Of a DNA stretch of 64,000 nt, positions 290-64,000 are shown in pieces. Under the pieces are notes generated by a model. That model was given only the letters and a program-made list of their open reading frames with translations. It did not search any database and was not told where the DNA came from. Source of the stretch: Chiloscyllium plagiosum (lineage: Eukaryota); contig NC_057748.1 in NCBI RefSeq assembly GCF_004010195.1, forward strand, positions 20,938,774-21,002,773, given 5' to 3'. The translations under genes and the position numbers were made by a program. Numbering within the stretch: the first letter of the stretch is position 1; every line of letters starts with the position of its first letter.

Positions 290-19043
<18,754 letters not shown>

Positions 19044-19314
19044 TGATGACTGTGGTGAGGGGGTGAGGCTGGGGCCTCTGCAGCCACCTTGCACTGTGTG
19101 TGTGATCCACCCCTTTTCTGCCTGTGTGCCTGCTGTCCTTGCCCTGGGTCTAGAACCAGGTTACCAAGGTGACGTGGCAGTTATTGGTAACTGGGAGGCT
19201 GCAGGTGGAGACAGGCTGGACAAATGGCCTTTGGACAGCCATAGCTTTTGTCCTTTTATTAATCACTGGATAAGGAATTTGTGACACTCTATCTGACAAC
19301 TCTTTTAATTCTTC

Positions 19315-19320
19315 AATAAA
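19315..19320 (+). terminator. Probable MCM5 polyadenylation signal AATAAA
   Basis: First AATAAA after the stop codon, followed by GT/T-rich sequence. Confidence 0.7.
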
Positions 19321-19519
19321 GTTGCTTGCCAGAAAGGTTTCTGTTTCTAACTTGTGTGTATGTATTCATTGTGATTCTTATTCAGACAGTGCCTGCCTTC
19401 AGGAATATGTCCTTTGTTGGCCCTCCTTGAATATCCTGGTGGGGAGTTTTGCTACTGTTATTCGGGAGGCTTTGCACTGTTCTGATTGGTGGTTGGGATC
19501 CTAAGCAGTAGTGAGGAAA

Positions 19520-21115
19520 AAGAAGAAAGGTAAGCCTGACAGTGGTGGTGGATAAGTTGCTGGAAGGGATTCAGAGACAGGATTTACCTGCATTTGGAAA
19601 GGCATGATTAGGGATAGTCAACATGGTTTTGTGCGTGGGAAACTGTTCATAAACCTGATTGAGTTTTTTGAAGAACAGACCAAGAAGATAGATGATGGCA
19701 GAGCAGTATACATTCTCTACATAGCCTTTGACAAGGTTCCGCACAGCTGACTGGTTAATGAGATTAGATCACATGGGATCCAGGGAGAGGTAGAGATTAG
19801 ATTCCCTACAGTATGGAAACAGGCCCTTCGGCCCAACGAGTCCACACTGACCCTCCAAAGAGTAACCCACTCAGACCCATTGCCCTATCCTATATTTACC
19901 CCTGGCTAATGCACATAACACTACAGGAAATTTTAGCTTGACCAATTCACCTGACCTGTACATGGTTGGATTGTGGGAGGAAACCAGAGCACCCGGAGGA
20001 AACCCACGCAGACACGGGGAGAATGTGCAAACTCCACATACAATCGCCTGAAGTGGGAATCAAATCTGGGTCCCTGGTACTGTGAGGCAGCAGTGCTTAC
20101 CACTGAGCCACCATGCGGCCCATGAATTGGATAAAAAATCCGCTTGACAGTAGGAGACAGGGTGGTGGTCGATGGTTGTCTTTTGGACTGGAGGCATGTG
20201 ACCAGCAGTGTGCCACAAGGATTGGTGCTGATCTGCTACTTTTCATTTATATATAAACTATTTATATATGGAATATAGGAGGCATGACACCCAAACGGAT
20301 GGTATAGTGGACAGTGAAGATTATCTAAGTGTACAACGAGGTCTTGATCAAGTTGGCCAAGGAGTGGCAGATGGAGTTTATAAATGTAAGATATTGCATT
20401 TTGTTAGGAAACCAGGGCAGGATTTGTACAGATAATGGCAGGGCCCTGGGGAGTATTGTCAAACAGGCCTAGGGGTGCAAGTACATAGTTCCTTGAAAGT
20501 GGCATCACAGGTTGACAGGGTGGTGTTTGGCGCACTTGCCTTCATCGGTCACAGCACTGAGTACAGGAGTTGTGGCTGTACAAGATGTTGGTGTACTGTA
20601 TACAATTCTGGTCGCCCTGCTATAGGAAGGATGTTATTAAATTGGAACAGGTGCAGAAAAGATTTACAAGGCTGTTCTTGAGGCTGGAGGTTTTGAGTCA
20701 TAAGCAGTAGCTGCATAGGCTAGAGTCTAGGAAGCTGAGGGGTGACCTTATAGAGGTTTAAAAAATCATGAGGTGTAGATCAGGGGAATAGCCAAGATCT
20801 CTTCCCTAGAGATTTGGGAGTCTAAAACTAGAGGGCATAGGTTGAAGTTGAGAGAAGAAAGATTTCAAAGGAATCTGAGGGGCATGTTTTCCATATAGAG
20901 GGTGCTGCATTGATGGAACAAACTGCCAGAGGAAATGCTAGACCTGAGTACAATGACAAAATTTAAAAGACATTTGGACAGGTACATGGATAGGAAAGAT
21001 TTAGAGGGATATGGGCCAAACGCAGGCAAATGGGACTAATTCAGTTTTGGAAGCTTGGTTGGCATGGACGAGTTGAGCCAAAGGATATGTTTCTGTACTT
21101 GTTGATTCTATGACT
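19520..21115 (+). mobile_element. CR1-clade LINE fragment with nested SINE (19793-20120)
   Basis: Same RT-region and 3' end sequence as other CR1 copies in the window. Confidence 0.8.
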
Positions 21116-21509
21116 TAGACTGGACTGTTTGACACATGGGAAATTCAACTTTGAAATCGTTGCAGCTGGGCTTGCTTCTGTCTTCACCAGGAAAAGGTTA
21201 ATCCAACTGGAGTCCTCTGCCTGGTAGAGACCATCCTAACATGACCCATTGTTGACTCCTATTCCAGTTTTCTGTGAGTGGAGTGGTTTCCTGGGTCTTC
21301 CTTATTGTCCTCTGGAACCTGTGCCCCCTCACCACTGACTCTGTTTCCTCTGAAATTCATATCACTCCATTCTAGAATCTCCTCTTTTGGAAGTAAACAA
21401 CATGAGCCGACACCCCCTTCTGAGAAGCCCCCACCCCCAGCTCTGCCCCTTCAGCCTGGTGCTCTGCAGGCAGTAAGCGAGCGAGTTTCTCTCAAAGGGG
21501 CCAGGCACA

Positions 21510-24500
21510 ATGCTGGAACACTTCCAGAAGATTGACCGGCTGACAGTGGCAGTGGACGAAGTGTTTTACACATGGACTGTCCGTGGCTGTGAGAGGCTCA
21601 AAGCCATGCCCTCCATCAAGCTGCTGCTGAGGTGTTTCCAATGTTTGTTTGCCTTCTTGGGAAGGGGCCTGGGCTTCAAGCTGCTGGCAACTTACTGGGC
21701 CCGCCTGACTGACTGTGTCAATGAGCGGGTGGCAGAATTCGAGGCTGTAGCCCAGCTTGATCTGAAGATGCCACTCGGAGTCTGGGATGTGTGCAGGTAA
21801 TAAGGACTTTTAAGGGCAGCAGCAAGTTTGTAATGTCTGTTGTGATTTCATCCTCTTGTTTGAGTCCCATCTTAGACCAAAAACAAAAGACTTAGCTGTT
21901 AACTCTTCCCTGGTGCACCTTTTGTGGGAAAGGCTCTCCCCAGCTGCCAACCAATCAGCACTGGCTTTCCATGCAATATAAATTGTTGCTCCCTTTGAGA
22001 TTTGGGTATTCTTGCAATTTTATCCTGATCAGTGCAAAACTATAAACATCAAATGCTGTGGATGGTTCTGGATTCTACGTTCCAAAATGGATGCAGAATC
22101 AGTAAAGGCAACCTTCTCAGACCACGTAGTTGTATCTCTCAGGTATGCCCGACAGCGTGCAGTGCTTTCCTCAGAGTAAACCGCTGGGTTACCTGATTGA
22201 GGTTTTTAAAGTTATAGCAATATTTGATGGGATGGACATACAGGGTCTGTGAGTGAGTGGGTGTGTTTGACTAAATCACAAGTAAATCTACTCATTCGGA
22301 AGAAACTTGACTTAGCCAAACAGTGATTCCATTCGTGATAAACATGACAAAATGATATAGTTGCTGCGAATAGTAACAATTAGAAAAACTAGGTTTATAC
22401 ATGAGGGATGGGAGGATATTTTACTAGGGTGTGATGAGGGGAATTGTATGAGGTTTTAACACCAATATGAGTCACTTCAGTCAAAAGGCCTGTTTCTGTG
22501 CAGCCCTCAAATAGCTCGACAATATCTAGGAGAAAACTGACTGGCCATCCTCTCCATCACCTTAAATAAGAGACCCTTAGAAATAAGAGCATCTGGCCCC
22601 TCGAACCTGCTTTCCTGCTGGCCCCTATTGGGAGCACCACCATCACCCAAAACGATGTGACACCTTGACTTACCATTCCTTCATTGTTGCTGGTTGGCTA
22701 TTGTTGGGATGTTCCACTTGACAGCTCGATGGATACAGCTACATAGACTGGAGCAACTCACCACCATATTCTCAAGGGGACTCAGAGATAGGCAATTAAT
22801 GCTGGTCTTACGATTCTCATATTCTCAGAATGGGTTTATTCTGCGATGCCCGAGTATTGAGAAGGAGGAAAGATGAGTTCGCAATTTTCATGAAGGGCCA
22901 AATGATGACCTCCTGTCCCCAATGTTTAAGTTTCTGCCATTCCTGGACGTTTTCAGCTTTGGTTATGAAGTCAGGTCAGAGTCTACTGCATTCTCCTCAA
23001 AGTATTTTCTCATCTTGTTGAATTACGTGCCACCCCAGTGACTGAGCAGGTTTCTGGACAGGAGAATGGAGAGAGGTACTTAAAGCTGGGTTGGCCGTAG
23101 GGGTAAGAGCTGTGGATTATCACCTTGCCTCTCTCATCTCCCCGCCCCCCCCACCATCTTTTGGCATTCCCTTCGCTCAGTCTAATACCGTTGGTTGTTG
23201 CTGACAGGACTAACACTCAATGCCCATCCTGTAAATGGCCTCTAACAGAATGGGGCAGATGGTAGCATGACATTAATGTCCATGGGATAATAATCCAGAC
23301 CCCGAGCCTAATGTGGGGACATGGATTTGAATCCTATTACAGCAACTGGTGAAATTTAAATTAATATGAAAACCAATCTCCAAAATGGGAGCTGGAAAAT
23401 TGTAAAAACTAATTTTTCCCTAATGTTTGTTAGGGAAGGAAATCTGCCATCCTTACCTGATCTGGCCTACATGTGACTCCAGACCCACAGCAACATGGTT
23501 CGAAAAGCATAGAAAATAGGAATAGGTGTAGGCCATTTGCCTTGTTAAGCTTTCTTCACCATTCAATATGATCATGATTGTTCCTGCTTTTAGTCCATAC
23601 CCTTTGATCAGCTTAGCCCTAAAACCCTCCAGGGTACTGTGCACAGTTATGCTCGCCCTGCTATAGGAAGGAAATTATTTAATTGGAAAGAACTCAGAAA
23701 GGATTTGCAAGGATGCTACCGGGAATGGAGGGTTTGAGTTATAGGGAGAGGCTGAATAGGCTAGGTCTTTTTTCACTGGAGCGTAGAAGTTTGAGAGGTG
23801 ACCTTATAGGTTATAAAACCGTGAGGGACATCGATAAGGTAAATAGCAAGTGTCTTTTTCCTAAGATATGAGAGTTCAAAACTAGAAAGCATTGGTTTAA
23901 GGTGAGAGGATAAAGATTTAAAAGGGACCTGACGGGTAACCTTTTCACACAGAGGATGGTTTGTGTGTGGAATGAACTGCCAGAGGAAGTAGTAGATGCA
24001 GCTATAGTTACAATGATTAAAAGACATTTTGATATGGACCATGAATAGGAAAGGTTTGGAGGGTTATGAGCCAAGTGGGACCAGTTTAGATTCCCTACAG
24101 TACGGAAACAGGCCTTTCAGCCCAACCAGTCCACACTGACCCTCTGAAGAGTAACCCACTCTCCTCTGACTAATGCACCTAACACTATGGGCAATTTAGC
24201 ATGGCCAATTCACCTGGCTTGTACATCTTTGGATTGTGGGAGGAAACCAGAGCACCTAGAGGAAACCCACGCAGACACAGGGAGAATATGCAAACTCCAC
24301 ACAGTCACTCAGCCTCATAGCACCAGGGTCACCAAACCTGGGACCCTGGTGCTATAAGGCAGCAGTGCTAACCACTGAGCCACTGTACTGTCTGTAAGTT
24401 TGGGAAACTTGGTTGGCATGGACTTGTTGGACTGAAGAATCTGTTCCTGTGATGTATGACTATATCCAACTCCTTCCTGAAAATAATGTGTTGGTCTCAA

Positions 24501-25606
24501 CTGCTTTCTGTGGCAGGTACGTCCACAGGCTCCCCACCCTCTGGGTGAAGAAATACCTGTCTGGTTGACACATAACTACCCTCTGAAATGGCCGAGAGAA
24601 CTGCTCAGTTCAAGGGCACATGAGCAACAAATGCCAGAGGTGTCCACATCCCATGAAAGAATGGATTTTATAAGAGTGAACTGCATTTACTCTGGGTCTA
24701 GAGTCACACAGAGGCCAGACCAAATGGCAGACTTCCTTCACTAAAAGGGCATTGGTGAACCAGATAGGGGTTTTCTTAACAACAATCAATAATTGCTGTC
24801 ATGGTCACCATAACTGAGATTAACTTTCAATTCTGGATTTATCAATTGAGTTTAAATTCCACTCACTGCCATGGACTTTGAACCCATGTCTCCTTCTTGG
24901 GGATTTTGGGATACCAGTCCAGTGACTATCCTACCATCTTTCCTTAGCATTGTATTGCTAATGAAAACCTAGGAGTCTGCTGAGTATGATTAAAACATTA
25001 CCTTTTGTTATATATGTAAATAAGAGTTAACTGAGGCTTCACCTTGCCACCAGGCTGTGAGAGAGCAAGATTTCAGTCATGCTACATGGTGCAGCATCAC
25101 TTCCTGCAATGATGTTGCAGAGTACCCAATTTGCATGTTGCACAGTAACCTCTTGCACTACTCCCACATGTCCGTTCTTTGTTTTAGGACCAAGTACAGT
25201 TACCACCAGAACCTGCAGAATCAAACTCTGTCCCTCCGATGGCAACTAAGCAACCACCTGGAACAAGAGCTGGCCCAAGCCATGATCCTCAGAAAATATC
25301 GCAACCATCTACTGGATGTGCTGGAGTGGGCCAATCAGATTGCAGAGAAACAAAGGTGCGCTGCGATTGGCCGACACGTGAGACGGTTGTATGTTGTTGC
25401 TGCCAATTATGTTCTGTGTAATTCTTAACTGTGTAGCACATCGTCCCCTCCCTCATGTGCTACTGAATGTGTTTCTTTCCAGTCTGGCCTTTGTGGTAGT
25501 GAAGCTGAGCAAGGGTACTGTTCCCAACTCCAGAGGGAGCTGGAGCCCTGACTATTTTCGTCACCTCCCTCATTCAGCCCAACGGCCCAAACTGTCCTCT
25601 CCCTAA
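21510..25606 (+). CDS. Candidate uncharacterised multi-exon gene or pseudogene (about 192 aa): exons 21510-21796, 25188-25355, 25483-25606
   Basis: acaATG start; donors AG|gtaata and AG|gtgcgc; acceptors gttttag| and tttccag|; both junctions are phase 2 and keep one open frame; AATAAA cluster at 26109-26138. Family not recognised. Confidence 0.55.
23630..24470 (+). mobile_element. CR1-clade LINE 3' fragment with nested SINE (24086-24385)
   Basis: [24 protein letters not shown]. Confidence 0.8.
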
Positions 25607-25892
25607 CTGACTTATGGACACTGACAGGAGGGGAGGCATGTTTATGTAGTCCAGAGGACAGGGTAAGTGACATTGTTCCAGATGACCAAGGAATCCCATC
25701 AAATACTGATCTTGTCTGCTACAGAATAATCATTCAAGAGGGAGAGCTGTCCAAAAACCTCCGAGGGTTGGAAGATCTGAAGAAGATCTGGAGGCTACTC
25801 ATCGAAGAGGAGAAAAGGTTGAGTCGGGAATTGAAGAAATGTCCAGTGCAGAGTTAGAGTTTGAGAAAACCTGACTAATATCAACTCAATGC

Positions 25893-26002
25893 CCTCCCTC
25901 TCTCTTCTCTTCGCTTCCCCTTCCTGCCTCCTTCCCTCTTCCCTTCTCTTCTCCATCTCCCCTCTTCTCCTCCCTGCCTGTTCCCTCTCTTCCTCCCCTC
26001 TC
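25893..26002. repeat. Polypyrimidine/polypurine low-complexity tract
   Basis: Almost pure C/T on the plus strand. Confidence 0.8.
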
Positions 26003-26108
26003 AACTTTACCAACTTCGGTCGGATGTATTCCTGGAGGTTCTGTCCACTCTCCAGCTGCCCAAACTACTCCGACAGTTTTTAACTCCAGCTTCTATATTT
26101 ATATAACC

Positions 26109-26138
26109 AATAAAATAAAGTCTTTAAGGAAAAATAAA
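26109..26138 (+). terminator. Cluster of AATAAA polyadenylation signals downstream of the candidate gene
   Basis: AATAAA at 26109, 26114 and 26133. Confidence 0.4.
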
Positions 26139-26289
26139 GTTAATCATTTGCTTGAAATTCTCTTTGCCTCCAGCATAGTCCTGGAGGATTAGAAAACTCC
26201 TCCTGGCCCACGTGGAAAAAAACTCAAAACAGGTCAAAATTTCTTTTCAGACATGAAGATTTTGTCAAACTATCACATTTAGCAGCAGA

Positions 26290-27220
26290 TCAATGGTACT
26301 GTTTAGATGGGGTAAGATCCAGTCAAGCCTCCTGGGCCAATGGCTGAGGAGTGGCAGATGGATTTTAGTTTGGATGTGTGAGAGGTATTGCATTTTGGTA
26401 AAACAAAAAAGGGCAGGACTTACACAATTAATGGTAAGGTCCTTGGTAGTGCTGTAGAACAAAGACTCCTAGGGGTTCAGGTATATAATTCTTCAAAGTT
26501 TGTGTTTCCTGTAGACAGGGTGGTTAAGAAGGTATTTAATACAGTTGCCTTTATTATTCAGACTTTGTGGAGTATTGGGAGTTAGAACATCATGTTGAGG
26601 TTGTACAGGACATTGGTGAGGCCACTTTGAGAGTACTGTGTCCCGTTCTGGTGGCCGTGTTATGGAAGGATATTGTTAAGCTGGAGAGGGTTCAGAAAAG
26701 ATTTACCAGGACATTGCTGGGAATGGAGGGTTTCAGTTATAAATGAGGCTGCACACGCTGTGACTTTTCTCACTTCAGTGTACGTCATTGAGGGGTCATC
26801 GAGTCATAGAGACGTGCAGCACGGAAACAGATCCTTTGGTCCAACGTGTGCATGGCAACCAGATATCCTAACCTAGTCTCATCTGCCAGCACTTGGCCCA
26901 TATTTGTCTAAGCCCTTCCTATACATATACCCATCCGTAAGCCTCTTAAATGCTGTAGTTGTACAAGCCTCCACCGCTTCCTCTGGCAGCTCATTCCATA
27001 CATGCACCACTCTCTGTGTGAAAAAGTTGCCCCTCAGGTCACTTTTAAATATTTCTCCTCTCCCTTAAAAACATGCCCCCTCGTTTTGAACTCCCCCAAC
27101 CTAGTAAAAAGATCTTTGCTATTGACCTTATCCTTGCCCTTCATGATTTTATAAACCTTTAGAAGGTCACCCCTCAACCTTTTATGTTCTAGGGAAACAG
27201 TCCCAGTCTATCCAGCTTCT
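26290..27220. mobile_element. CR1 fragments in opposite orientations (+ 26290-26800; - 26805-27220)
   Basis: CR1 RT-region segment followed by a reverse-strand CR1 3' end. Confidence 0.7.
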
Positions 27221-27985
27221 CCTCCTTTATCCTTTATCTTTAAATGCCGAGTTCAAGATTTCCCAGGAGGAGAAACATCTTTTTGCTCACTGTCAAGCAT
27301 CCTCAGAAACTCACCCCTCTCTTGATGTGTTTCTTTATTAAAAAAAAGTCACTTCCCCCACCATTATATAAAAGAACAGCTCAATCAGTGATTTACCTAG
27401 TTCCACTTAATACACTTTCGTAAGAAAAACTTCAGGTATGACCACTTCAACTGACCCCTAGCGTCAACGGCTTAGAAGGGAAGAGAGTGTTAGAATTCTA
27501 GATTGCAACATGAAGAGGTGACACAGTGCTTCATGCACTAGGGAACTGGGTTTGATTCCAGCCTCAGGTGACTGTCTGTGCGGAATCTGCATGTTTCCCC
27601 CATGTCTGCATGGGTTTCCTTGGGGTGCTCTAGTTCCCTGCCAGAGTCCATGGAATACAGGGAGAACTAGCCATTTGGATACAGAACTGGCTCAAAGGTA
27701 GAGGACAGAGGGAGGTGGAGGGTTGTTTTTCAGACTGGAGGCCTGTGACCAGTGGAGTGCCACAAGGATCGGTGCTGGGCCCTCTACTTTTTGTCATTTA
27801 CATAAATGATTTGGATGCGAGGATAAGAGGTACAGTTAGTAAGTTTGCAGATGATACCAAAATGAGAGGTGTGTTGGACCGCGAAGAGGGCTGCCACCAA
27901 TTACAACAGGATCTAAGAAGACGTTTGGTATGCTTTCCTGTATTGGTCAGAGTATTGAGTACAGGAGTTGGGAGGTCATGTTGCG

Positions 27986-29905
27986 GCTCCAACCCTGGCA
28001 ACATCCTTGTAAATCTTTTCTGAACCTTTTCAAGTTTCACAACAAGTTTCCAATAGGGAGACCAGAATTGCACGCAATATTCCAACAGTGGCCTAACCAA
28101 TGTCCTGTACTGTACATTCCCCAGGATCTACTATGAAATGTATATGTCCTGCTAAGATTTGCTTTCCTAAAATACAGCACCTCGCATTTATCTAAATTAA
28201 ACTCCACCTGCCACTTCTCAGCCCATTGGCTCATCTGATCAAGATCCTGTTGTAATCTGAGGTAACCTGTCCACTACATCTCCAATTTTGGTGTCATCAA
28301 CAAACTTACTAACTATACCTCTTATGCTCACATTCAAATCATTGATACAGATGATGAAAGGTAGTGGATGCAGCACCGATCCTTGTGGTACTCCACTGGT
28401 CACAGGTCTCCAGTCTGAAAAATAACCCTCCACCATCACCCTCTGTATTCTATCTTTGAGCCAGTCCTGTATCCAAATGGCTAGTTCTCCTGTATTCCAT
28501 GAGATCTAATCTTGCTCACCAGTCTCCCATGGGGAAACCTTGTCAAATGCCTTACTGAAGTCCATATAGATCACATCTACTGCTCTGCCTTCATCAAACC
28601 TCTTTGTTTCTTTTTCAAAAAACTCAATTAAGTTTGTGAGACATGATTTCCCATGCATAAAGCTATGTTGACTATTCCTAATCAGTCCTGAAGAAGGGCA
28701 TGTGCCCGAAACGTCGAATCTCCTGTTCCCTGGATGCTGCCTGACCTGCTGTGCTGTTCCAGCAATAAAGTTTCAGCTAATCAGTCCTTGCCTTTCCAAA
28801 TACATGTACATCCTGTCCTTCAGGATTCCCTCCAGCAACTTGCCCACCACCGACATCAGGCTCACTGGTCTATAGTTCCCTGGCTTGTCCTTACCACCTT
28901 TCTTATACAGTGGCACCACGTTAGTCAACGTCCAGTCTTCTAGCACCTCACCTGTGACTATCGATGATACAAATATCTCAGTAAGAGGCTCCGCAATCAC
29001 TTCCCTAGCTTCCCACAGAGATCTAGGATACACCTGATCAGGTCCTGGGGATTTATCCTCTTTTATGCGTTTCAAGACATCCAGCACTTTCTCCTCTGTA
29101 ATATGGACATTTTTCAAGATGTCACCATCTATTTTCCTACATTCTATATCTTCTATGTCCGTTTTCACAGTAAATAATGATGCAAAATACTCATTTAGTA
29201 TCTGCCCCATCTCCTGCGGCTCCACACAAAGGCCACCTTGCTGATCTTTGAGGGGCCCTTTTGTCCTTAATGTATTTGTTAAAACCCTTTGGATTCTCCT
29301 TAGCTTTATTTACCAAAGCTATCTCATGTCCCCTTTTTGCCCTCCTGATTTCACTCTTAAGTATACTCCTACTGCCTTTATACTCTTCTTAAGATTCACT
29401 TCATCTATCCTGTCTATACCTGACATATGCTTCCTTCTTTTTCTTAACCAAACCCGCAATTTCTTCAGTTATCCAGCATTCCCTATACCTACCAGCATTT
29501 ACGTTCTCCCCAACAGGAATATACTTTCTCTGGACTCTCATTTTCTGATTTCTGAAGGTTTGCCATTTTCCAGCTGTCCCTTTACCTACGAACATCTGTG
29601 CCCAATCAGCTGTTGAAAGTTCTTGCCTAATACCATCAAAATTGGCCTTCCTCCAATTTAGAACTTCAACTCTTATATCTGGTTAATCCTTTTCCATCAC
29701 TATTTTAAAATTAATAGAATTATGGTTGTTGGCCCCAAAGTGCTCCCCCACTGACACCTCAGTCACCTGCCCTGCCTTATCTCCCAAGAGTAGGTCAGTT
29801 TTGCACCTTCTCTAGTAGGTACATCCACATACTGAATCAGAAAATTTTCTTGTACACACTCAACAAATTCCTCTCCATTCCTTAACACTATGGCAGTCCC
29901 AGTCT
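27986..29905 (-). mobile_element. CR1-clade LINE fragment (ORF2)
   Basis: ORFs with [29 protein letters not shown] and [13 protein letters not shown]. Confidence 0.88.
28688..28715 (+). ncRNA. Minimal hammerhead ribozyme motif (family A)
   Basis: CTGAAGAAGGGCATGTGCCCGAAACGTC. Confidence 0.55.
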
Positions 29906-30689
29906 ATGTGGAGTCACACACAGGCCAAACCAGGTAAAGATGTGGAATTCCTTCCCTAAGGGACATCGGCGAATCAGATGAAATTTTATGACAATTGACT
30001 GTGGTTAGATGGTCACCTTTAGAGTAGCTTTTCTAATTAAAGATTTAATAAAAATGTTTCCATCTGTGATAATGGGATTCAAAACCATATCCCCACACAT
30101 GGGTTCTGAATGATTAATCTAGTGGCTGATGTTCCTGGTTGGAACACGATAGTATTCCATGATGTTAGTTTGATGTTCACAAAACTCAAAAATAAGGGAA
30201 TGTGACATTGAGGAGTAGTGGTAGCCATTCAGATCCTCAATCCTGTTCTACCATCATTGTTTGATGGGATTGTGGCCTCAACTCCATTTTCCTGTTCCTT
30301 TGTGACCCCTTGACAATCAGGAATTTTGGTTTGCGTTTTCCATTCCCTTAATTGGACAAGCATATGGACGTACATGGAATAGTGTAGGTTAGATGGGCTT
30401 CAGATTGGTATGACAGGTCGGCGCAACATCGAGGGCCGTAGGGCCTGAACTGCGCTGTAATGTTCTATGTTCTAATTACCAGCAACAACTCAATTTTGAT
30501 CATCTCACTTTCAATCTCTCCATTTAGTCCCTATCTCTGTACATACTCCAAGACTTTTGCCCTCCTGCAATCCCAGCCTCCATTGCACATTTTAATTGCA
30601 CCATCTTCAACAACACTCAGCCCAGATTCTGCACTTGTCTCCTGTGGCCTTTATCCCCGCCCTTTCACTCAAGGTGATTGACATTCGCT

Positions 30690-30915
30690 TTTACCAATCG
30701 GTGTGAAGTGGAAGGCGGGACCTTCGTCGGAATGTGGTACTTGACGTTAATATCAGCCTATCATTGCAAAGGATATGCAGGACCATTGTGATGGATATGC
30801 TCGTTCACCAATCATCATCAAGGACGGTTGGAGATTCCGCCTTCCGCCCCCGGTTGTGGACCAATCCGCAGACAGGGAGCCCCAGGCGGGTTTGGAAGGG
30901 GTGAAGATGGCGGCG
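30690..30915 (+). promoter_or_regulatory. CpG-rich NDUFA6 promoter
   Basis: CCAAT boxes (30694, about 30808, 30861), GC-box-like GGCGGG/CCGCCC, CRE-like TGACGTTA, and YY1-type AAGATGGCGGC overlapping the ATG. Confidence 0.7.
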
Positions 30916-31045
30916 GCGGCGGCGGGCGGCCGTGCGATGGGTACCGTCAAGGTGGTGAAGCCCTTTCTGTCCCGGAACCAGAGCGAAGCCAAGCGCCGGG
31001 TGCGAGAGCTTTACCGGGCCTGGTACCGGGAGGTGCCCAACACCA
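30907..31045 (+). CDS. NDUFA6: NDUFA6 exon 1 ([46 protein letters not shown])
   Basis: Strong Kozak aagATGG; A|gtaagg donor. Confidence 0.94.
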
Positions 31046-34000: not shown

Positions 34001-37000
34001 TGGTGAGAACAAGGTCAAGTAGGTTTTTCTCGCTTGGTGATGCGCTCACCATGTATTCCAGACCTCACATATCCTTCAGGATTCAACTAGTTCAATCATT
34101 CTTTACAACCCTTTATTCAGGGTTTGTGCCCTTTTTGTCCTCAGTACATCTTCCAGGCGATGTTCAATATGGAAGAAAAACTGATTTGTCTGCTGAGGGA
34201 GGGTGGTAGGTGGTCATCAGCTGGAGGTTTCCTTGCTTGCATTTGACCTTCTGCTCTCAGGAATCAATGTTGAGGACTCTGAGGGCTACTACCTTCTGAT
34301 CAGTTACAACTTTGTAGTCCCCTCTGGTACTTCTGTCCTGTCAGAGGACAGACCCAGGAATGATGGAGGAGTCTGGGGCATTGGATATAAGGTATGATTA
34401 TGATTATGACTGTGACATCCTGTTGCTTGACTAGTCTTGGTTTTCTACACAAGTCAGATGTCTGGCTGATTGCAAACAAATTCTGGAACTGCTGAGATGA
34501 AGGATCTTGTCGCTGAGTGGTACTTCAAAACAATAGACATTGTGTAAAGCAGGCAGGAGTGAAAGAAATAGAGCAGACGTCATGAGGATCAGATGAAGTG
34601 TTGGGATGTGGAGTGTAAACACCTGGTGTGCAGCAGTTGGACTAAGAGACCTGTTTCTGCATGTTAAATGTAATTGTTTTGGGAGATTAAATGCTGCAAG
34701 TTTGGATCTAACATTTCATTCTCTCTACAGTACAGAAATTCCATCTGGATATCTCAGTAAAACAGGGACGAGATAAAGTGCGGGAAATGTTCATGAAAAA
34801 CGCCCATGTCACTGATCCCCGAGTTATCGACCTGCTGGTGATTAAGGTCTGGGATTCTGTAATTGTGCAGAGAAACTGATAATATGATGGAAAGCATTGT
34901 GAAGTGGGAAGTTATACATAGTCATAGGGCTGTACAGTATGGAAACAGACCCTTTGGTCCAACTCCTTGCAGACCAGATATCCTAACCTAATCTATCCAA
35001 TTTACCAGCATTTGGCCCATATCCCTCTAAACCCTTCCTATTCGTGTACCCATTCAGATGCCTTTTAAATGTTGTAATTGTACCAGCCTCCACTACTTCC
35101 TCTTAGCCTGCTGGACACACTTTCCTCATTCCTGAAGAAGGGCTTATGCCCGAAACGTCGATTCTCCTGTTCCCTGGATGCTGCCTGACCTGCTGCGCTT
35201 TTCCAGCAACACATTTTCAGCTCCACTACTTCCTCTGGCAGTTCATACCGTACATGCACCATTCTGTGAAAACAATTGCCCCTTAGGTCCTTTTAAATCT
35301 TTCCTCTGTCACATTAAACCTATGCCCTCTAGTTTTGGACTCTCCTATGCTGGGAAAAAAGACCTTGGCTATTCACCCTATCCGTGCCCCTAATGATTTT
35401 ATAAATTTCTACAAGGTCACCCCTCAGCTTCCAACTCTGTAAAGAATATAACCCAAACATATTCAGCTTCTCCCTATAGCTCAAACCCTCCAATCCTGGC
35501 AACATCCTTGTAAATCTTTTCTGAATCCTTTCAAGTTTCACAATATCCTTCCTCTTTACCTCTGAGTTCCCCAAGGATTTGTCCTTGACTCCCTCATCTT
35601 CCTATTATACGCAGTCACTGCCAAGATCATCTGTGGGCATAAGGATGGCTTCTGCAGCTTCTGTTTGTCAGCCTGGTTCAAACTTCCAACCCTTGACGAT
35701 CTGCAGTTTCTTTAGTGAAATGTAGCGAAGCCCAAAGCTGTCATCTTGGAGCTGACAGAAACTCCATCACTGGATCACTGTCACCCCACTCCTGTCTTGG
35801 GGGATGTTTTCGGCTGAAAAATACTTCGTAACTGCAGTATCTTATTTAATCTAGTACTTCAGTCCCAGCTCCGTTTACCGTCTATCATCAAGACTGCTTA
35901 CTTCCACTTCCAGAGCCTCTGTCTCCGTTCCTGCCACAGTACCCTCTTCCAAATGTGACCTTTCCAATACTGCCTTACATCCTCTGACCTCTAAACTTTA
36001 GATCATCGTAAACTCTGCTGCCTGTGTTTTAACATACTTTAATGTCTTGAGAGAGACCACTGAAATAAAGTTCGGCTGTGTGAGGGCTTGGAAAAAGTAG
36101 TTCAGGTCAGCAAGACAGCATCGCGAAAACAAACCCTGAAATGAAATAAAAACAAATGCAAGGAAATGCCTGAAAATGTTGTCGTCATGGTCCAACAGAA
36201 GGAGCCTGAAGAAATTGTTCATTTCCTACATTTTAAGTGTAGACCAGTCTTTCTAATTTGAAGAATCAGGATGCTATGTTCCAGCTATACAGGACATTGC
36301 AATTTTCCAAAAGAAGCCTAACCATTCGGTCTGGTCTCCCTAGTAGAGGAAAGGTGTTGTTAAACTTGAAAGAATTCAGGAAAGACTTACAAAGACTTTG
36401 CTTGGGTTGGAGGATTTGAATAGGGGAGAAGCTGAATAAGCTGGGCCCACTATACCTGGAGCGTTAGAGGTTGAGGGGTGACCTTACTGAGGGTTATAAA
36501 ATCATGAGGGGCATGGATAGGGTGAATAGACAAGGTCTTTTTTTCCACTATAGGGGAGTTCAAAATTAGAGGGCATAGGTTTAAGTTGAAAGGGGAGAAA
36601 TTAAAAAGTGATCGAAGGAGCAACTTTTTCACGCAGAGGATGGCGTGTGTGTGGAATGAGCTGCCATGGGAAGTGGTGGATACTGATACATTTACAACAT
36701 TTAAAAGGCATCTGGATGTATATATGAATAGGAAGGGTTTAGAGGAATATGTACCAAATGCTGGTAAATAGGACTGGATTTATTTAGGATATCTATCTGC
36801 ATCAATGAGTTGGACCGAAGGGTCTGTTTCCGTGCTATGTGAGTCTATAAATAGTTAATAATTAAGTATTTGCTTGATAGTACAGAACTTAAATATTGCT
36901 AAAAGAGATATGAAGTTGAAGCTTTTAGTCTTGCTGTCATTTTTTAAAAGGATGCTGCTCTTTGTGGAATATGCCTACACCTTGCAGCTTTCTCTGAGGC

Positions 37001-38735
37001 CTCTTGCATCCCTGTGACCAATCAGAGTCAGCTTGTTTGGTTTGGATTTAATCGGTTAACTAAGACAGTAAACAGTTCCTGCCATGTATCTCCAACCAAT
37101 CAGCACCCTCTTCCCATGATGTATAAATGTATTCTTTCCTTTGTAAAAGGGGCTCTCTTGTAGCACAATGATAGTATGCCTACACCTGAACTGAGGGGCC
37201 CTGGTTCAAATCCCACCTGCTCCAGAGGTGTATAATAACATCTGAACAAGTTCATTAGAAAAGTTAGGATCCATTTGTAAAATTGGTTTTCTTGTGTTTC
37301 AGTCCTGATTGTCACATGAAAAGCTTTGACTGCATGTGCCGTTTAAATACATCAGTAATTAATGAATTGAGTATGACTTAAAATTAATCACTGAAGCGTT
37401 ACTGAGACCATGAATGATTCTACTAGTCTTTAAAATGAGCTTCTGCTAATAATAAATTGAAAGATTAGCAATGGCAGCCCAGCCATTGTGGTTGCTGTTT
37501 GTGGTGATGTGTAGACAGTGAGACTGTCCTGGATAATAATACCTGTAGGAAATGTCTTTGTCTTGAGATGCTCCAGACTAAAGCTACAAGAGGGAATATG
37601 TGACTGTCCAGCAGCAAGGTGCTGGGTGAATAGATCAGAAATGTTGTAACTAGATGTGATTTGATCATTTGAGCTGATAATGTCCTCTGCAATCAAAGCC
37701 TATCCTGATGCAAAGGTACTGGATATTGTGGTGCAAATGGAGAGGCAATTGGAAAGAGAAGGCTTCTACCTCGTTGGTCCTGATGTGGCCTAAACCAAAG
37801 AGACTCAAAAAGATCAGAGAGGTAGACCAGCAAAAGAAATCTCAGGAGCTACATAAATTAAAAAGCAGGACCAATGTCTTGTCATCTTGCTGAGGAACCA
37901 AAGCATGAGCGAATTAGCAGTAGGATCAGCAGAACAGCAAAGTGTATGTATACTGACACTATCTATTATCCTTTATGCAAGGATAAGGGAGGAAGAAAAG
38001 TAACTATTAAGATAGAACAGCCAGTAAAAAATAAAGGACAAAGGTAGAAACAGAATTGACCAATTATTTGAAGTATGTTTGTGCATCTAATACCAGTAGG
38101 GATTTACAGGATGAAGTAGCTGGAAAAGCTACGAAATGAGTAAAAGCTACAGAACAAACATGGGAGATTACAGCTAACCCTAAATAAATCAACAAGAGAA
38201 GGTAGTGAAAGGGATAAAGGAAATGGAGTTTTTAAATGATGTGACTTGGAATGGAGAACAAAAGTTATAATATCACAAGTGGGAAATATTTCAAAAATGA
38301 ACTAGGTATACTCAATCAAAACCAAGGACAAACAAGCTGATAATGAATGGCAGGGGAAAAGTTAGAAGTAAAATGAAAAGAAGTCAAACAGTAAGTTAAT
38401 TGACAGGGAGGATGACGAAAGGAAAACCAAAGTTTAGGGAAGAGAAGGAAGATTCAGTGATTATTTAGTCTCTAATTCCTGTATGTCCAAATAAATAGTT
38501 TGGAATTGATGTATGGCATGGAAATGGTGAGGAGTGGATTTAGTTTTGGCCTCCTAATCTGCCTTGTTCTTTGATCACTCATGTCATTAATTTGTTTTTC
38601 AAGGGTAAAATGGATCTTGAAGAAACTATAAAAGTGTGGAAGCAGCGGACACACATCATGCGTTACTTCCATGAGACAGAAACACCCCGACCAACAGATT
38701 TTCTCTCCAGATTCTACACAGGACATGATGTGTAA
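30907..38735 (+). CDS. NDUFA6: NADH dehydrogenase 1 alpha subcomplex subunit 6 (LYR-motif protein), 128 aa, 3 exons
   Basis: Exons 30907-31045, 34731-34846 and 38604-38735 (387 nt) joined by GT-AG introns; [11 protein letters not shown] (LYR motif), [35 protein letters not shown]. Confidence 0.96.
31965..33400 (+). mobile_element. CR1-clade LINE 3' fragment with nested Penelope-end insert (about 32117-32397) and SINE (about 32541-32854)
   Basis: [25 protein letters not shown] and RVWNELPEE segments interrupted by the inserts. Confidence 0.82.
32273..32300 (+). ncRNA. Minimal hammerhead ribozyme motif (family A, CpG-decayed stem III)
   Basis: CTGATGAAGGGCTCATGCCCGAAATGTC. Confidence 0.5.
34731..34846 (+). 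CDS. NDUFA6: NDUFA6 exon 2 ([38 protein letters not shown])
   Basis: ctacag| acceptor; AAG|gtctgg donor; hand-translated. Confidence 0.94.
34915..35555 (-). mobile_element. CR1-clade LINE 3' fragment with a nested hammerhead-bearing insert
   Basis: [20 protein letters not shown]. Confidence 0.8.
35132..35159 (+). ncRNA. Minimal hammerhead ribozyme motif (family A)
   Basis: CTGAAGA-A-GGGC(TTAT)GCCC-GAAA-CG-TC: catalytic core, stem II and palindromic minimal stem III. Confidence 0.6.
36270..36850 (+). mobile_element. CR1-clade LINE 3' fragment
   Basis: [15 protein letters not shown]. Confidence 0.75.
38604..38735 (+). CDS. NDUFA6: NDUFA6 exon 3 ([43 protein letters not shown])
   Basis: ttcaag| acceptor; TAA at 38733-38735; AATAAA at 38761-38766. 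Confidence 0.94.
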
Positions 38736-43519: not shown

Positions 43520-46500
43520 TAAGGTATTGCATTAGAAATAAGATGGATGAGCTTGAGGCTCTTGGAAATTGGCAGATATTGTGGGGATAACTGAGACGTG
43601 GCTTCAAGTGGACAGGGCCTGGGAAATAAATATTCAAGGCTACACGTGCTATTGTAAGGACAGACTGATGGGCAGAGGGGGTGGGGTGGCCATGTTGGTA
43701 AGGGATGATATGCAGTCCCTCGCGCGGGGGGACCTAGAATCAGGGGATGTAGAGTCAGTGTGGATAGAGCTGAGAAATACGAAGGGTAAAAAGACCCTCT
43801 TGGGAGTTATCTACAGGCCCCCAAACAGTAGTCTGGATGTCGGATGTAAGTTGAATCAGGAGCTGAAATTGGCCTGTCGCAAAGATGTCATTACAGTTGT
43901 TATGGGGGATTTTAACATGCAGGTAGACTGGGAGAATCAGGATGGTACTGGACCCCAAGAAAGAGACTTTGTGGAGTGCCTCAGAGATGGATTCTTAGAA
44001 CAGCTGGTGCTGGAGACTTCAATATGCAGGTGGTCTGGGTAAATAATGTTGTTAGTGGATCTAAAGAAAGGGAATTCATGGAATGCTTACAGGATGGCTT
44101 TTTGGAACAGCTTGTCATGGAGCCCACAAGAGAGCAGGCTATTCTGGACCTAGTGCTTTGCAATGAACCAGACTCTATAAAAAGATCTTAAAGTAAGGGA
44201 ATCCTTAGGAAGTAGCGACCATAATATGATAGAGTTCAGTCTGCAGTTTGAAAGAGAGAAGGCAAAATCGGATGTAATGGTGTAACAGTTGAATAAAGGN
44301 NNNNNNNNNNNNNNNNNNNNNNNNNNNNNNNNNNNNNNNNNNNNNNNNNNNNNNNNNNNNNNNNNNNNNNNNNNNNNNNNNNNNNNNNNNNNNNNNNNNN
44401 NNNNNNNNNNNNNNNNNNNNNNNNNNNNNNNNNNNNNNNNNNNNNNNNNNNNNNNNNNNNNNNNNNNNNNNNNNNNNNNNNNNNNNNNNNNNNNNNNNNN
44501 NNNNNNNNNNNNNNNNNNNNNNNNNNNNNNNNNNNNNNNNNNNNNNNNNNNNNNNNNNNNNNNNNNNNNNNNNNNNNNNNNNNNNNNNNNNNNNNNNNNN
44601 NNNNNNNNNNNNNNNNNNNNNNNNNNNNNNNNNNNNNNNNNNNNNNNNNNNNNNNNNNNNNNNNNNNNNNNNNNNNNNNNNNNNNNNNNNNNNNNNNNNN
44701 NNNNNNNNNNNNNNNNNNNNNNNNNNNNNNNNNNNNNNNNNNNNNNNNNNNNNNNNNNNNNNNNNNNNNNNNNNNNNNNNNNNNNNNNNNNNNNNNNNNN
44801 NNNNNNNNNNNNNNNNNNNNNNNNNNNNNNNNNNNNNNNNNNNNNNNNNNNNNNNNNNNNNNNNNNNNNNNNNNNNNNNNNNNNNNNNNNNNNNNNNNNN
44901 NNNNNNNNNNNNNNNNNNNNNNNNNNNNNNNNNNNNNNNNNNNNNNNNNNNNNNNNNNNNNNNNNNNNNNNNNNNNNNNNNNNNNNNNNNNNNNNNNNNN
45001 NNNNNNNNNNNNNNNNNNNNNNNNNNNNNNNNNNNNNNNNNNNNNNNNNNNNNNNNNNNNNNNNNNNNNNNNNNNNNNNNNNNNNNNNNNNNNNNAATTA
45101 TATACCAGTTAGTCTGACCTCAGTGGTGGTAAAGATGCTGGAGTCTATTATAAAGGATGAAATTATGGCACATCTGGATAGTAGTAACAGGATAGGTCAG
45201 AGTCAGTATGGATTTATGAAGGGGAAATCATGCTTGACTAATCTTCTGGAATTTTTTGAGGATGTAACTCTGAAGATGGACGAGGGAGATCCAGTAGATG
45301 TAGTGTACCTGGAATTTCAGAAAGCTTTTGATAAAGTCCCACATAGGAGGTTAGTGAGCAAAATTAGGGCGCATGGTATTTGGGGGCAAAGTACTAACTT
45401 GGATTGAAAGTTGGTTGGCTGATAGGAAACAAAGAGTAGTGATAAACAGCTCTATTTTGGAATGGCAGGCAGTGACCAGTGGGGTACCGCAGGGATCAGT
45501 ACTGGGACCGCAGCTTTTTACAATCTATCTTCAGGATATACAAGATGGTATTAGCAATAACATTCGCAAATTTCATCAGCTGGGTGGCAGGGTGAAATGT
45601 GAGGAGGATGTTAGGAGATTACGGGGTGACCTGGACATGTTAGGTGAGTGGTCAGATGCATGGCAGATGCAGTTTAATGTGGGTAAATGTATGGTTGTCC
45701 ACTTTGGTGGCAAGAACAGGAAGGTAGATTACTACCTAAATGGAATCAATTTAAGTAAGGGGGCAGTACAGAGAGATCTGGGTGTTCTTGTATAACAGTC
45801 AATGAAGGCAAGCATTCTGGTACAGCAGGTAGTGAAGAAGGCTAATAGCATGCTGTCCTTTATAACAAGAGGGATTGAGTATAGAAGCAAAGAGGTGCTT
45901 CTGCAGCTGTATAGGGCCCTGGTGAGACCACACCTGGAGTATTGTGTGCTGTTCTGGTCTCCAAATTTGAGGAAAGACATTCTGGCTATTGAGGGAGTGC
46001 TGTGTAGGTTCACGAGGTCAATTCCTGGAATGGCGGGACTACCTTAGGCTGAAAGACTGGAGCGACTGGGCTTGTATACCCTTGAGTTTAGAAGACTGAG
46101 AGGGGATCTGATTGAGACATATAAGATTATTAAAGGATTGGACACTCTGGAGGCAGGAAACATGTTTCCGCTGATGGGTGAGTGCCGAACAGAGGACACA
46201 GCTTAAAAATACGGGGTAGACTATTTAGGACAGAGATGAGGAAAAACTTCTTCACCCAGAGAGTGGTGGCTGTGTGGAATGCTCTGCCCCAGAGGGCAGT
46301 GGAGGCCCAGTCACTGGATTCATTTAAGAAAGAGTTGGATAGAGCTATCAAGGATAGTGGGACAGAGATGAGGAAAAACTTCTTCACCCAGAGAGTGGTG
46401 GCTGTGTAGAATGCTCTGCCCCAGAGGGCAGTGGAGACCCAGTCTCTGGATTAATTTAAGAAAGAGTTGGATAGAACTCTCAAGGATTGTGGAATCAAGG

Positions 46501-59600: not shown

Positions 59601-60603
59601 TTATCCCAGTTCCAACCTTCTAGCTCAGCACCGCCCTCATGACTTGTCCCACTTGTCCATCTTCATTCCCACCTATCCACTCCACCCTCCCCAACAACCT
59701 ATCACACCCCACCTCCATCCACCTATTGCATTCTCAGCTATCTTCCGTCCCAGCCCCCTCCCATTTCTCTCTCCACCCCAGAGACTCCCAGCCTCATTCC
59801 TGATGAAGGGCTTTTGTTCAAAACGTTTTCCTGCTCCTCGGATGCTGCCTGATTTGCTGTACTTTTCCAGCACCACACTCTTTATCTCTAATCTCCAGCA
59901 TCTGCAGTCCTCACTGGCGCCTAGTCGTCTGAATTCTGTCTCTGAGTCTATGGTAATCATCTCCTTTTACCGACACCAACAACCCTCTCAATGCATTTTG
60001 GTTTCCAACCTGACATACCTTACCTTTTGTTTTCTCTCTCATTCCCTGCTTGGATTTTCATCATTAAAAAAAAACGGTTAACTTACAAATGCTGCCTAAC
60101 CTACTGATTGTTTTCAGCATTTTCTCTTTAGGTGTCAGATTCCAAGCAGTTGTAGTATTCGACATTTCTCTCATGGGCTCCATTGATTGGCTGAACCCAA
60201 ACAACCAGCGACCAGGTACTGAGGCGTCAATTGGTGGAGAGCACTGTCTATCACTGCCATTACACCAATCAGCAGGGACTAATTATGATCTATGCAGCAG
60301 TTCCGCACATCAATCGCTATCAAAGATGTCAATCATAACAGCACGCTGTCCGATTGGTTTAGAGGAGCTGTCAATCTAGCCCATACATCCGCATCTTTCC
60401 TCCACCCCCTCATACTCCCCCAGCCGGATCGCTGCGCTCACCTTGACGGGCTTGGGCAAAATAGCACCCGATTTTGACATCACCACTTTTCTAGAAGAGT
60501 TAAACTGACCCCCAGCTTTAATGTGGGGATTGAGAAGGCCCCGCGTCACCCCAGCCCGCAAGGAGCCGCCGATCCCGAGAAGAAACCGCCCGACCGCGGC
60601 CAT
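50542..60603 (-). CDS. SMDT1: Essential MCU regulator EMRE (SMDT1), 99 aa, 2 coding exons
   Basis: Exon 60442-60603 (Arg-rich mitochondrial presequence ... [12 protein letters not shown]) joined in phase 0 to exon 50542-50679 ([45 protein letters not shown]); single transmembrane helix and poly-Asp tail. Confidence 0.95.
50926..51210 (-). mobile_element. V-SINE (HE1-like) copy
   Basis: (GATTA)n tail, core and tRNA-like head in reverse. Confidence 0.8.
52920..54370 (-). mobile_element. 5'-truncated CR1-clade LINE with 3' end
   Basis: [41 protein letters not shown]. Confidence 0.88.
57778..58090 (+). mobile_element. Near full-length tRNA-derived V-SINE (HE1-like) with (TAATC)n tail, nested in a CR1 fragment
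   Basis: Pol III A box (TGGCACAGTGG) and B box (GGTTCAATTCCC); V-domain core TGTGTGGAGTTTGCACATTCTCCCCGTGTCTGCGTGGG; CR1-like 3' tail. Confidence 0.88.
58880..59920 (+). mobile_element. Penelope-like element 3' remnant (GIY-YIG) ending in a hammerhead-bearing terminal repeat
   Basis: FTCTS / [18 protein letters not shown] / RFREHL / PVAEHFNS / [10 protein letters not shown], followed by CTGATGAAGGGC at 59800. Confidence 0.8.
60442..60603 (-). CDS. SMDT1: SMDT1 exon 1
   Basis: aagATGG Kozak; AAG|gtgagc donor on the minus strand. Confidence 0.93.
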
Positions 60604-63745: not shown

Positions 63746-63784
63746 TATATATCAACAAACGTTAAAAGAGTCTTTTGTCTCAGT

Positions 63785-64000
63785 TCATTCTTTCCTTCTC
63801 AGCTTAACTTTCAGAGGGTTGTCTGTAGGATGAGCATGCCACTCTGCCGTTGGGGCGTTCACAGGACCTTTAACGCGAGTGTGATGACTCCACCCTTTCT
63901 CAGCAGTCCGAATAGCTGTTTCAGTAATCAGGAGGGTTAGGAATGGTCCCTCCCAACTTGGGTGGAGTTTGGTATCTTTCCAGGTCTTGATCAGGAACCA
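63785..64000 (-). CDS. pol: ERV pol C-terminus (integrase GPY/F domain), partial
   Basis: Hand translation: WFLIKTWKDTKLHPSWEGPFLTLLITETAIRTAEKGWSHHTRVKGP...DNPLKVKLRRKE*. Confidence 0.85.
   Translation of the reverse strand, partial: WFLIKTWKDTKLHPSWEGPFLTLLITETAIRTAEKGWSHHTRVKGPVNAPTAEWHAHPTDNPLKVKLRRKE

What the first reader, a model, noticed from the sequence alone, without database searches (positions are those of the whole stretch)
21510..26140. Unrecognised multi-exon protein-coding locus between MCM5 and NDUFA6
Seen: three repeat-free segments (21510-21796, 25188-25355, 25483-25606) have GT-AG splice sites, and both junctions are phase 2. They join into one 192-aa frame: MLEHFQKIDRLTVAVDEVFYTWTVRGCERLKAMPSIKLLLRCFQCLFAFLGRGLGFKLLATYWARLTDCVNERVAEFEAVAQLDLKMPLGVWDVCR-TKYSYHQNLQNQTLSLRWQLSNHLEQELAQAMILRKYRNHLLDVLEWANQIAEKQS-LAFVVVKLSKG...LSSP*. 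Codons look gene-like (many CTG/GAG/AAG), the ATG has A at -3, and an AATAAA cluster follows. Inference: a mostly alpha-helical protein I cannot assign to a family, possibly lineage-restricted or a gene lost in mammals.
Basis: partly seen in the sequence, partly recalled or inferred. Interest (0 to 1): 0.75.

Follow-up and report, generated by a model that had tools for sequence, protein, structure and literature searches.

The report
Unnamed shark-coelacanth helical protein gene
This shark locus holds three coding segments that, in a predicted three-exon gene, give a 195-residue protein matching an unnamed coelacanth protein end to end; it fits no protein family searched, likely acts as a small helical adaptor, and is possibly an old vertebrate gene lost or unrecognisable in well-studied fishes and land animals.

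Summary
Exons 1 (21510-21796) and 2 (25188-25355) match whale shark and Chiloscyllium punctatum hypothetical proteins (146/151, 151/152 identical) and an uncharacterised coelacanth protein, LOC106706862. With it, the 195-aa product aligns to coelacanth without a gap (68 of 182 identical), including a 16-residue block with 15 identities. Both public shark models lack this exon. Gene order HMOX1-MCM5-X-NDUFA6-SMDT1-NAGA holds in C. punctatum gene numbering; in amniotes RASD2 follows MCM5. No Pfam, NCBIfam, PHROG, PDB or fold match is significant. Low-confidence models are all-helical, with a C-terminal hairpin. No teleost or tetrapod relative appeared, but the search loses most relatives below about 27% identity, so loss is not shown. 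Splicing and tissue were not tested with reads. Best reading: a conserved, probably tissue-restricted, intracellular helical adaptor that binds a partner through its invariant helix. It is a cryptic ancient vertebrate gene, present in databases only as 'hypothetical'; I found no paper describing it.

The parts
21510..21796 (+). Coding exon 1 (ATG to phase-2 donor; residues 1-96): three predicted helices, two of them amphipathic (about 36-53 and 55-72), then conserved block 66-96
   Evidence: 34/89 identical to coelacanth, 73% to an unnamed Logan ORF (P0001) that stops just after the same position; 28 of 88 compared positions are invariant in window, whale shark, P0001 and coelacanth
21797..25187 (+). 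Intron 1 (3391 nt, GT-AG), with repeat copies at about 23400-24560
   Evidence: the same junction is in the whale shark and C. punctatum gene models; not tested with reads
25188..25355 (+). Coding exon 2 (168 nt, phase 2/2; residues 97-152): a length-conserved but sequence-variable helix (4/31 identical), then the near-invariant block MxLRKYRNHLLDVLEW (15/16)
25356..25724 (+). Intron 2 of the corrected model (369 nt, GT-AG)
   Evidence: the junction codon gives Arg152, matching coelacanth Arg145; not tested with reads
25483..25606 (+). It lies in intron 2; with the strong donor after 25662 it could be a 180-nt cassette whose stop lies 56 nt before the junction
25725..25857 (+). Corrected coding exon 3 (133 nt, phase-2 acceptor to TAG; residues 153-195): amphipathic, heptad-patterned C-terminal helix
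   Evidence: 13/37 identical to coelacanth, gap-free; absent from both public shark models
25858..26140 (+). Putative 3' UTR with a pyrimidine-rich low-complexity tract (25892-26002) and AATAAA at 26109, 26114 and 26133
   Evidence: cleavage site not tested
21115..21509 (+). Repeat-free upstream stretch: candidate acceptors at 21455 and 21470, in-frame stop at 21474-21476, upstream ATG at 21402; no CpG island and no TATA box
   Evidence: role as promoter or 5' UTR is inferred
18942..19043 (+). Context: last coding exon of the upstream MCM-family gene (MCM5), AATAAA at 19315
30907..31044 (+). Context: first coding exon of the downstream LYR-family gene (NDUFA6), on a CpG island

Best explanation
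The locus holds three collinear coding segments conserved with coelacanth, which form a predicted three-exon gene (21510-21796, 25188-25355, 25725-25857) for a 195-aa protein that is predicted to be all-helical and likely works inside the cell as an adaptor or structural subunit, binding a conserved partner through its near-invariant helix. Shown: collinear similarity of all three segments to one coelacanth protein, gap-free over 182 residues; conservative changes only against whale shark; no significant family or fold match. Inferred: (1) the splicing itself; (2) age, older than the split of cartilaginous and bony fishes; (3) no signal peptide or membrane-spanning helix, so cytosolic or on a membrane surface; (4) residues about 128-190 fold as an antiparallel helical hairpin whose first helix (15/16 identical) is the binding face; the 31-residue stretch before it, fixed in length but not in sequence, acts as a spacer; the amphipathic helices at 36-72 pack against a partner or a lipid surface; (5) expression is tissue-restricted. 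My odds: real gene with this exon structure 0.9; intracellular helical binding subunit, given that, about 0.55.
For: Homology: phmmer of exon 1 over 1.84 billion representatives gave 6 hits, 2 of them real relatives: P0001 (73%, E 1e-39) and P0002 = coelacanth XP_014353861.1 (38%, E 1e-13). A profile search added whale shark g38298.t1 and, by cluster, C. punctatum GCC38625.1. tblastn of the coelacanth protein hits the window at 21531-21797, 25243-25356 and 25699-25836, in order and on one strand; the other 6 of its 9 rows have E above 1. Both junction residues are Arg in both species. Whale shark differs at 5 of 151 residues, all conservative. Shape: both AlphaFold2 models are helix-only; the best-supported part is residues 131-180 of the coelacanth protein (block pLDDT 69-75); the C-terminal helix has hydrophobic residues at 7 of 9 (shark) and 6 of 9 (coelacanth) a/d positions in the best register. 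Maximum 19-residue hydropathy is 1.48 (shark) and 1.11 (coelacanth). Restricted expression (weak): CpG observed/expected 0.14-0.32 from 19000 to 21999 against 0.75 at the NDUFA6 start; the symbol LOC106706862 is absent from the bamboo shark fin-bud TPM table of PMC7932699, which lists MCM5, NDUFA6, SMDT1 and nine other LOC1067068xx symbols.
Against: No RNA reads were laid, so neither junction nor tissue is shown. All four related sequences are gene predictions or raw ORFs; the two shark models end differently (whale shark stops at the exon 2 end, C. punctatum reads through intron 2). Exon 3 rests on one relative. The structure models are poor overall (mean pLDDT 53.6 and 53.8, pTM 0.32 and 0.23) and come from 5-6 sequences; AlphaFold2 tends to draw long helices when it has little alignment (my knowledge). 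No partner is identified, so the adaptor role is inferred from conservation pattern and lack of recognisable catalytic motifs. P0001 has a 19-residue window of hydropathy 1.94, so membrane insertion of helix 2 is not excluded. Net charge differs (+6 shark, -6 coelacanth). The coelacanth locus's neighbours and introns could not be checked.
Confidence: 0.5

Rival explanations
1. The protein acts on a lipid surface: its amphipathic N-terminal helices anchor it to a lipid droplet or organelle membrane and the helical hairpin remodels or tethers it.
For: Amphipathic helices at 36-53 (moment 0.61, mean hydrophobicity 0.28) and 55-72 in shark, at 30-47 and 48-65 in coelacanth; hydropathy 1.94 in P0001. 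The Leu-Gly turn between them is invariant in four sequences.
Against: This region is the less conserved half (17/60 identical) and is less hydrophobic in coelacanth. No Pfam family was hit at E<=10 for whale shark, C. punctatum or P0001. Amphipathic helices are also what any helical bundle shows.
Confidence: 0.2
2. It is a germ-line or ciliary structural filament subunit (synaptonemal-complex-like or axonemal coiled-coil protein).
For: Small, helix-only, heptad-patterned, non-CpG upstream region, not listed in fin-bud RNA. Axonemal and kinetochore coiled coils appear among fold-search rows.
Against: Those rows are generic (Z 5-8, identity mostly under 15%) and tied with unrelated proteins. 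The one FOX-type motif upstream occurs in 594 of 2000 shuffles. No expression data from gonads or ciliated tissue were seen.
Confidence: 0.15
3. It is a fast-diverged orthologue or paralogue of a named vertebrate gene (for example a COMMD-like protein), not a family of its own.
For: COMMD4 is the top PDB sequence hit in three searches, residues about 22-62, E 0.19-0.66, and has a similar length (199 aa). Simulated relatives of exon 1 are found in only 88/200 cases at 27% identity and 39/200 at 25%, so distant named relatives can be missed.
Against: E-values are not significant and cover 41-44 residues of the less conserved part. No Pfam COMM-family hit at E<=10 in 4 of 4 proteins. No strand is predicted in either model. 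In PMC7932699 the best cross-species BLASTP hit among gar, coelacanth, chicken, alligator and human proteins was the unnamed coelacanth protein.
Confidence: 0.1
4. The reader's 192-aa isoform, or the intron-retaining 175-aa form of the C. punctatum model, is the main product.
For: The acceptor at 25483 is plausible and the frame is open for 40 codons; a public model reads through intron 2.
Against: Neither tail resembles the coelacanth C-terminus. The read-through tail differs between the window and C. punctatum at 2 of 23 residues against 1 of 152 in exons 1-2 (Fisher p 0.046) and has GC3 0.39 against 0.60-0.68 in the exons. GC3 does not separate the two candidate third exons (both 0.60).
Confidence: 0.05
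5. The frame is chance, or a domesticated transposon or viral gene.
For: None found.
Against: Gap-free three-segment homology to coelacanth. No copies elsewhere in the window. No significant PHROG, NCBIfam, Pfam or BFVD match. A repeat library such as Dfam was not available.
Confidence: 0.02

Closest known systems
Coelacanth uncharacterized protein LOC106706862 (XP_014353861.1, 186 aa)
   Same: Gap-free alignment over 182 residues, 37% identity, all three exons, Arg at both junction positions.
   Different: Starts 7 residues later, ends 2 residues earlier, acidic rather than basic; only a predicted model, no function. Its neighbours and introns were not checked.
Chiloscyllium punctatum chiPu_0017140 (GCC38625.1, g17140.t1) and whale shark g38298.t1
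   Same: Same ATG and exon 1-2 junction; 151/152 and 146/151 identical. g17140 is numbered between MCM5 (g17139) and NDUFA6 (g17141).
   Different: Both lack exon 3: one reads through intron 2, the other stops at the end of exon 2.
'Cryptic' vertebrate genes missing from model species (e.g. Bmp16, PMC6395752; seen as search listing and abstract start only)
   Same: Old vertebrate gene seen in slow-evolving lineages and not in well-studied ones.
   Different: Those are paralogues of named families; this one has no family, domain or known paralogue.
COMMD4 (PDB 8f2r, 9zmz)
   Same: Similar length; weak likeness over about 41 N-terminal residues (E 0.19-0.66).
   Different: Not significant; no Pfam COMM match; no strands predicted in the C-terminal half.
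Antiparallel helical hairpin binding modules (Get1 cytosolic domain, Rab-binding domains of ELKS1, EHBP1, MICAL1; CsoR)
   Same: VIA-align Z 7.8-9.2, rmsd 1.4-3.0 over 64-73 residues of model positions 114-186.
   Different: 9-11% identity, tied with designed and unrelated proteins and under the tool's bar for helical bundles: a shared arrangement, not kinship.

Membership tests
LOC106706862 orthologue group (unnamed) | Full-length collinear protein similarity | tested here: met
   68/182 identical, no gaps; three ordered tblastn hits
LOC106706862 orthologue group (unnamed) | Same genomic neighbours in a second shark | tested here: met
   Consecutive C. punctatum model numbers g17138 HMOX1, g17139 MCM5, g17140, g17141 NDUFA6, g17142 SMDT1, g17143 NAGA in PMC7932699 supplementary file 3; order inferred from numbering
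LOC106706862 orthologue group (unnamed) | Same neighbours and intron positions in coelacanth | not testable with these tools
   No vertebrate genome search; only indirect: Arg at both junction positions
COMMD proteins | C-terminal COMM domain detectable by profile (definition recalled) | tested here: not met
   No COMM-family Pfam hit at E<=10 in 4 of 4 proteins; PDB hits to COMMD4 cover N-terminal residues only, E>=0.19
COMMD proteins | Beta-sheet plus helix fold in the C-terminal half (recalled) | tested here: inconclusive
   Models show helices only but have low confidence; not listed in fold searches
Rab-binding helical hairpins (bMERB and similar) | Profile match or distinct structural match | tested here: inconclusive
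   No Pfam hit; structural rows at Z about 8 tied with unrelated hairpins
Secreted helical cytokines or exchangeable apolipoproteins | N-terminal hydrophobic signal peptide (recalled) | tested here: not met
   Charged N-terminus; most hydrophobic 19-mer starts at residue 32 and scores 1.48. No dedicated predictor was run and an unseen upstream exon is not excluded
Transposon- or virus-derived gene | Match to mobile-element or viral protein families or folds; dispersed copies | tested here: not met
   Pfam, PHROGs (best E 0.022), NCBIfam (best E 0.0097, far under cut-off), BFVD (best E 0.31); no second copy in the window. No Dfam/RepBase available
Gene lost in teleosts and tetrapods | Absence from their genomes, not only from protein sets | tested here: inconclusive
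   No hit; detection 197/200 at 35% identity, 140/200 at 30%, 39/200 at 25%; genomes not searchable

The most novel reading that the evidence does not exclude
This is the founding member of an undescribed jawed-vertebrate protein family, with no recognisable domain, kept for over 400 million years in sharks and coelacanth and lost independently in ray-finned fishes and tetrapods (in amniotes at the MCM5-RASD2 rearrangement breakpoint), and it serves a physiology that sharks and coelacanth share, such as urea-based osmoregulation or a salt-secreting rectal gland.
Probability: 0.12. Interest if true: 0.75.

Novelty: new member of a known kind. Interest (0 to 1): 0.45.

Why it matters
Old vertebrate genes without any family assignment are few, and those absent from mouse, human and zebrafish go unstudied. 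This one has a corrected full-length sequence, a near-invariant 16-residue helix that points to a conserved partner, and a position next to a break in gene order between sharks and amniotes. If the loss in teleosts and tetrapods is confirmed, it is a candidate for a trait shared by sharks and coelacanth. At the least it fixes two public shark gene models and gives a seed for a new family profile. It does not overturn anything known, and its function rests on inference.

Tried and rejected
Rfam 19000-31000: 0 matches. Word-based homologue searches: 0 of 129 candidates (exon 1, longer proteins), 1 of 230 (the query itself), 3 of 8000 scored. Four of the six phmmer hits (P0003-P0006) were dropped: three plant LRR resistance proteins and one repeat protein, scored by summing short repeated stretches. 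Metagenome scan: 5 of 150 stretches passed, all five are one recurring sequence with in-frame stops, so chance. ESM Atlas: exon 1 gave top score 0.90 with recognition below the bar; the coelacanth protein gave no usable feature hit and structural rows with TM by query under 0.5; this shows neither absence nor novelty. PDB by sequence: nothing under E 0.16. Foldseek PDB and BFVD: 0 matches at E<=0.001; VIA-align: generic hairpins and long helices; absence of a family there is no evidence. Homodimer prediction of the coelacanth protein: no answer, score 0.00, alignment not used. No whole genome was held. Promoter motifs: none above chance. Literature: full-text searches for LOC106706862 and chiPu_0017140 gave 0 papers; topic searches listed no paper on this gene, judged by titles and abstract starts; whale shark paper PMC8455134 supplements (24 files, at least one cut) had no entry for five identifiers beyond an unrelated orthogroup number; the catshark atlas PMC11979771 supplement could not be read and the 2018 shark genome paper is not held: both may hold expression or orthogroup data for this gene. 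Earlier scan notes: none bear on it.
Full report
Observation. The flanking genes are as stated: an MCM-family gene ends at 19043 with its own AATAAA at 19315, and a LYR-family gene starts at 30907 on a CpG island. The locus is therefore not a part of MCM5's coding sequence. An in-frame stop at 21474-21476 lies upstream of the ATG, so 21510 is the likely start unless an acceptor between 21477 and 21509 is used.

Relatives. phmmer of exon 1 over 1.84 billion cluster representatives gave 6 hits. Four are repeat proteins of plants or of unknown origin and were dropped. Two are real: P0001, an unnamed Logan ORF 73% identical that ends one residue after the exon 1 boundary, as a genomic read-through of the same donor would; and P0002, the coelacanth uncharacterized protein LOC106706862 (XP_014353861.1). 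A profile search added a whale shark model (g38298.t1, 151 aa) and, through its cluster, a Chiloscyllium punctatum model (GCC38625.1, 175 aa). The window differs from C. punctatum at 1 of 152 residues and from whale shark at 5 of 151, all conservative, so the window comes from a close relative of the bamboo sharks.

The third exon. The list of open frames showed a second candidate downstream, and the coelacanth protein decides between them. The segment after the acceptor at 25725 aligns with 13/35 identities and 26/35 positives. The corrected model is 588 nt, 195 aa, and aligns to coelacanth with no gap over 182 residues, 68 identical; both junction codons give Arg where coelacanth has Arg. 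tblastn finds the same three segments in order and nothing at 25483-25606. The whale shark model stops at the end of exon 2 and the C. punctatum model reads through intron 2; that tail is more variable (2/23 against 1/152, p 0.046) and has low GC3. Splicing was not checked with reads, so the junctions are predictions backed by conservation; exon 3 rests on one relative.

Gene order and distribution. Supplementary file 3 of PMC7932699 (seen as matching rows, plus methods passages) lists g17138 HMOX1, g17139 MCM5, g17140 = LOC106706862 (score 110, the value I get for this pair), g17141 NDUFA6, g17142 SMDT1, g17143 NAGA. So the shark-coelacanth pairing already exists as one row of an automatic table, in which gar, chicken, alligator and human proteins were also offered and coelacanth was best. 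PMC4524481 (passages) gives HMOX1-MCM5-RASD2-Mb as conserved among amniotes, so the gene sits where shark and amniote orders part; which order is ancestral I could not test. No teleost, amphibian or amniote relative appeared. A gap-free simulation shows that would find 197/200 relatives at 35% identity, 140/200 at 30%, 88/200 at 27% and 39/200 at 25%. Since coelacanth, a slow-evolving lineage, is at 38%, faster lineages may simply be under the limit or unannotated. Loss is plausible (I give about 0.45 to real loss in both teleosts and tetrapods), not shown. The age of over 400 million years for the shark-coelacanth split is recalled.

The protein. Conservation is blocky: 17/60 in residues 8-67, 19/31 in 66-96, 4/31 in 97-127, 15/16 in 128-143 (MxLRKYRNHLLDVLEW), 15/46 in 144-189. 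There is no hydrophobic N-terminus, and the most hydrophobic 19-mer scores 1.48. Amphipathic helices are found at 36-53, 55-72, 130-147 and 173-190. AlphaFold2 on 5-6 sequences gives helix-only models of low confidence (pLDDT 53.6 and 53.8); only coelacanth residues 131-180, an antiparallel hairpin, reach about 70. Fold searches return generic hairpins and coiled coils. Pfam, NCBIfam, PHROGs, PDB sequences and Rfam give nothing significant. The one recurring weak lead, COMMD4 (E 0.19-0.66 over about 41 residues), fails the profile test for the COMM domain.

How it likely works. A 23-kDa helical protein with no recognisable catalytic motif, one helix held almost invariant across the shark-coelacanth split, a spacer fixed in length but not in sequence, and a heptad-patterned last helix reads best as a binding subunit: the invariant helix docks on a conserved partner and the hairpin or the amphipathic N-terminal helices place it on a complex or membrane surface. 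Every step of this is inference. Hints of restricted expression are weak: no CpG island upstream and no row in the fin-bud expression table where its neighbours and nine similar coelacanth symbols are listed (the transcript annotation file 2 is held cut, so absence there counts for less).

Novelty and verdict. The gene is in public databases only as hypothetical models, both shark ones lacking the last exon. Searches for its identifiers found no paper, and six topic searches listed none about it (titles and abstract starts only); unread supplements of PMC11979771 and the unheld 2018 shark genome paper may bear on it. It is a new member of a known kind, the cryptic old vertebrate gene, with the twist that it has no family at all. 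Observation partly confirmed, interpretation partly supported, interest 0.45.

Noticed in passing
If ever included it would truncate the protein and sits near the usual limit for nonsense-mediated decay.
   Followed up: partly
window 19529 and 21455/21470 (+): The strongest donor of the region lies 200 nt past the MCM5 polyadenylation signal, at the edge of a repeat, and good acceptors lie just upstream of the gene's ATG; a non-coding first exon, or read-through from MCM5, is possible.
   Followed up: no
window 21402-21476 (+): A 24-codon upstream ORF in the same frame as the gene, stopping 33 nt before its ATG.
   Followed up: no
window 60481-60603 (-): First coding exon of a gene matching the SMDT1/EMRE position in the C. 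punctatum gene order (name inferred and recall; no Pfam hit on this exon), convergent with NDUFA6, whose further exons lie near 34724-34846 and 38600-38700.
   Followed up: partly
window about 62200-64000 (-): Retroviral env-like sequence in several open pieces separated by stops and frame changes; one piece matches Pfam TLV_coat (E 5e-9). It lies just upstream of the SMDT1-like gene.
   Followed up: partly
window 19529-21115, 23400-24560, 26333 onward: Dense dispersed repeats (up to 15 similar copies within the window) surround the gene, leaving under 400 nt of unique sequence upstream of its ATG.
   Followed up: partly
window about 44300-45100: Assembly gap (796 N in the window) inside the NDUFA6-SMDT1 interval.
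   Followed up: no
public models GCC38625.1 and whale shark g38298.t1: Both lack the conserved last exon and should be corrected.
   Followed up: yes
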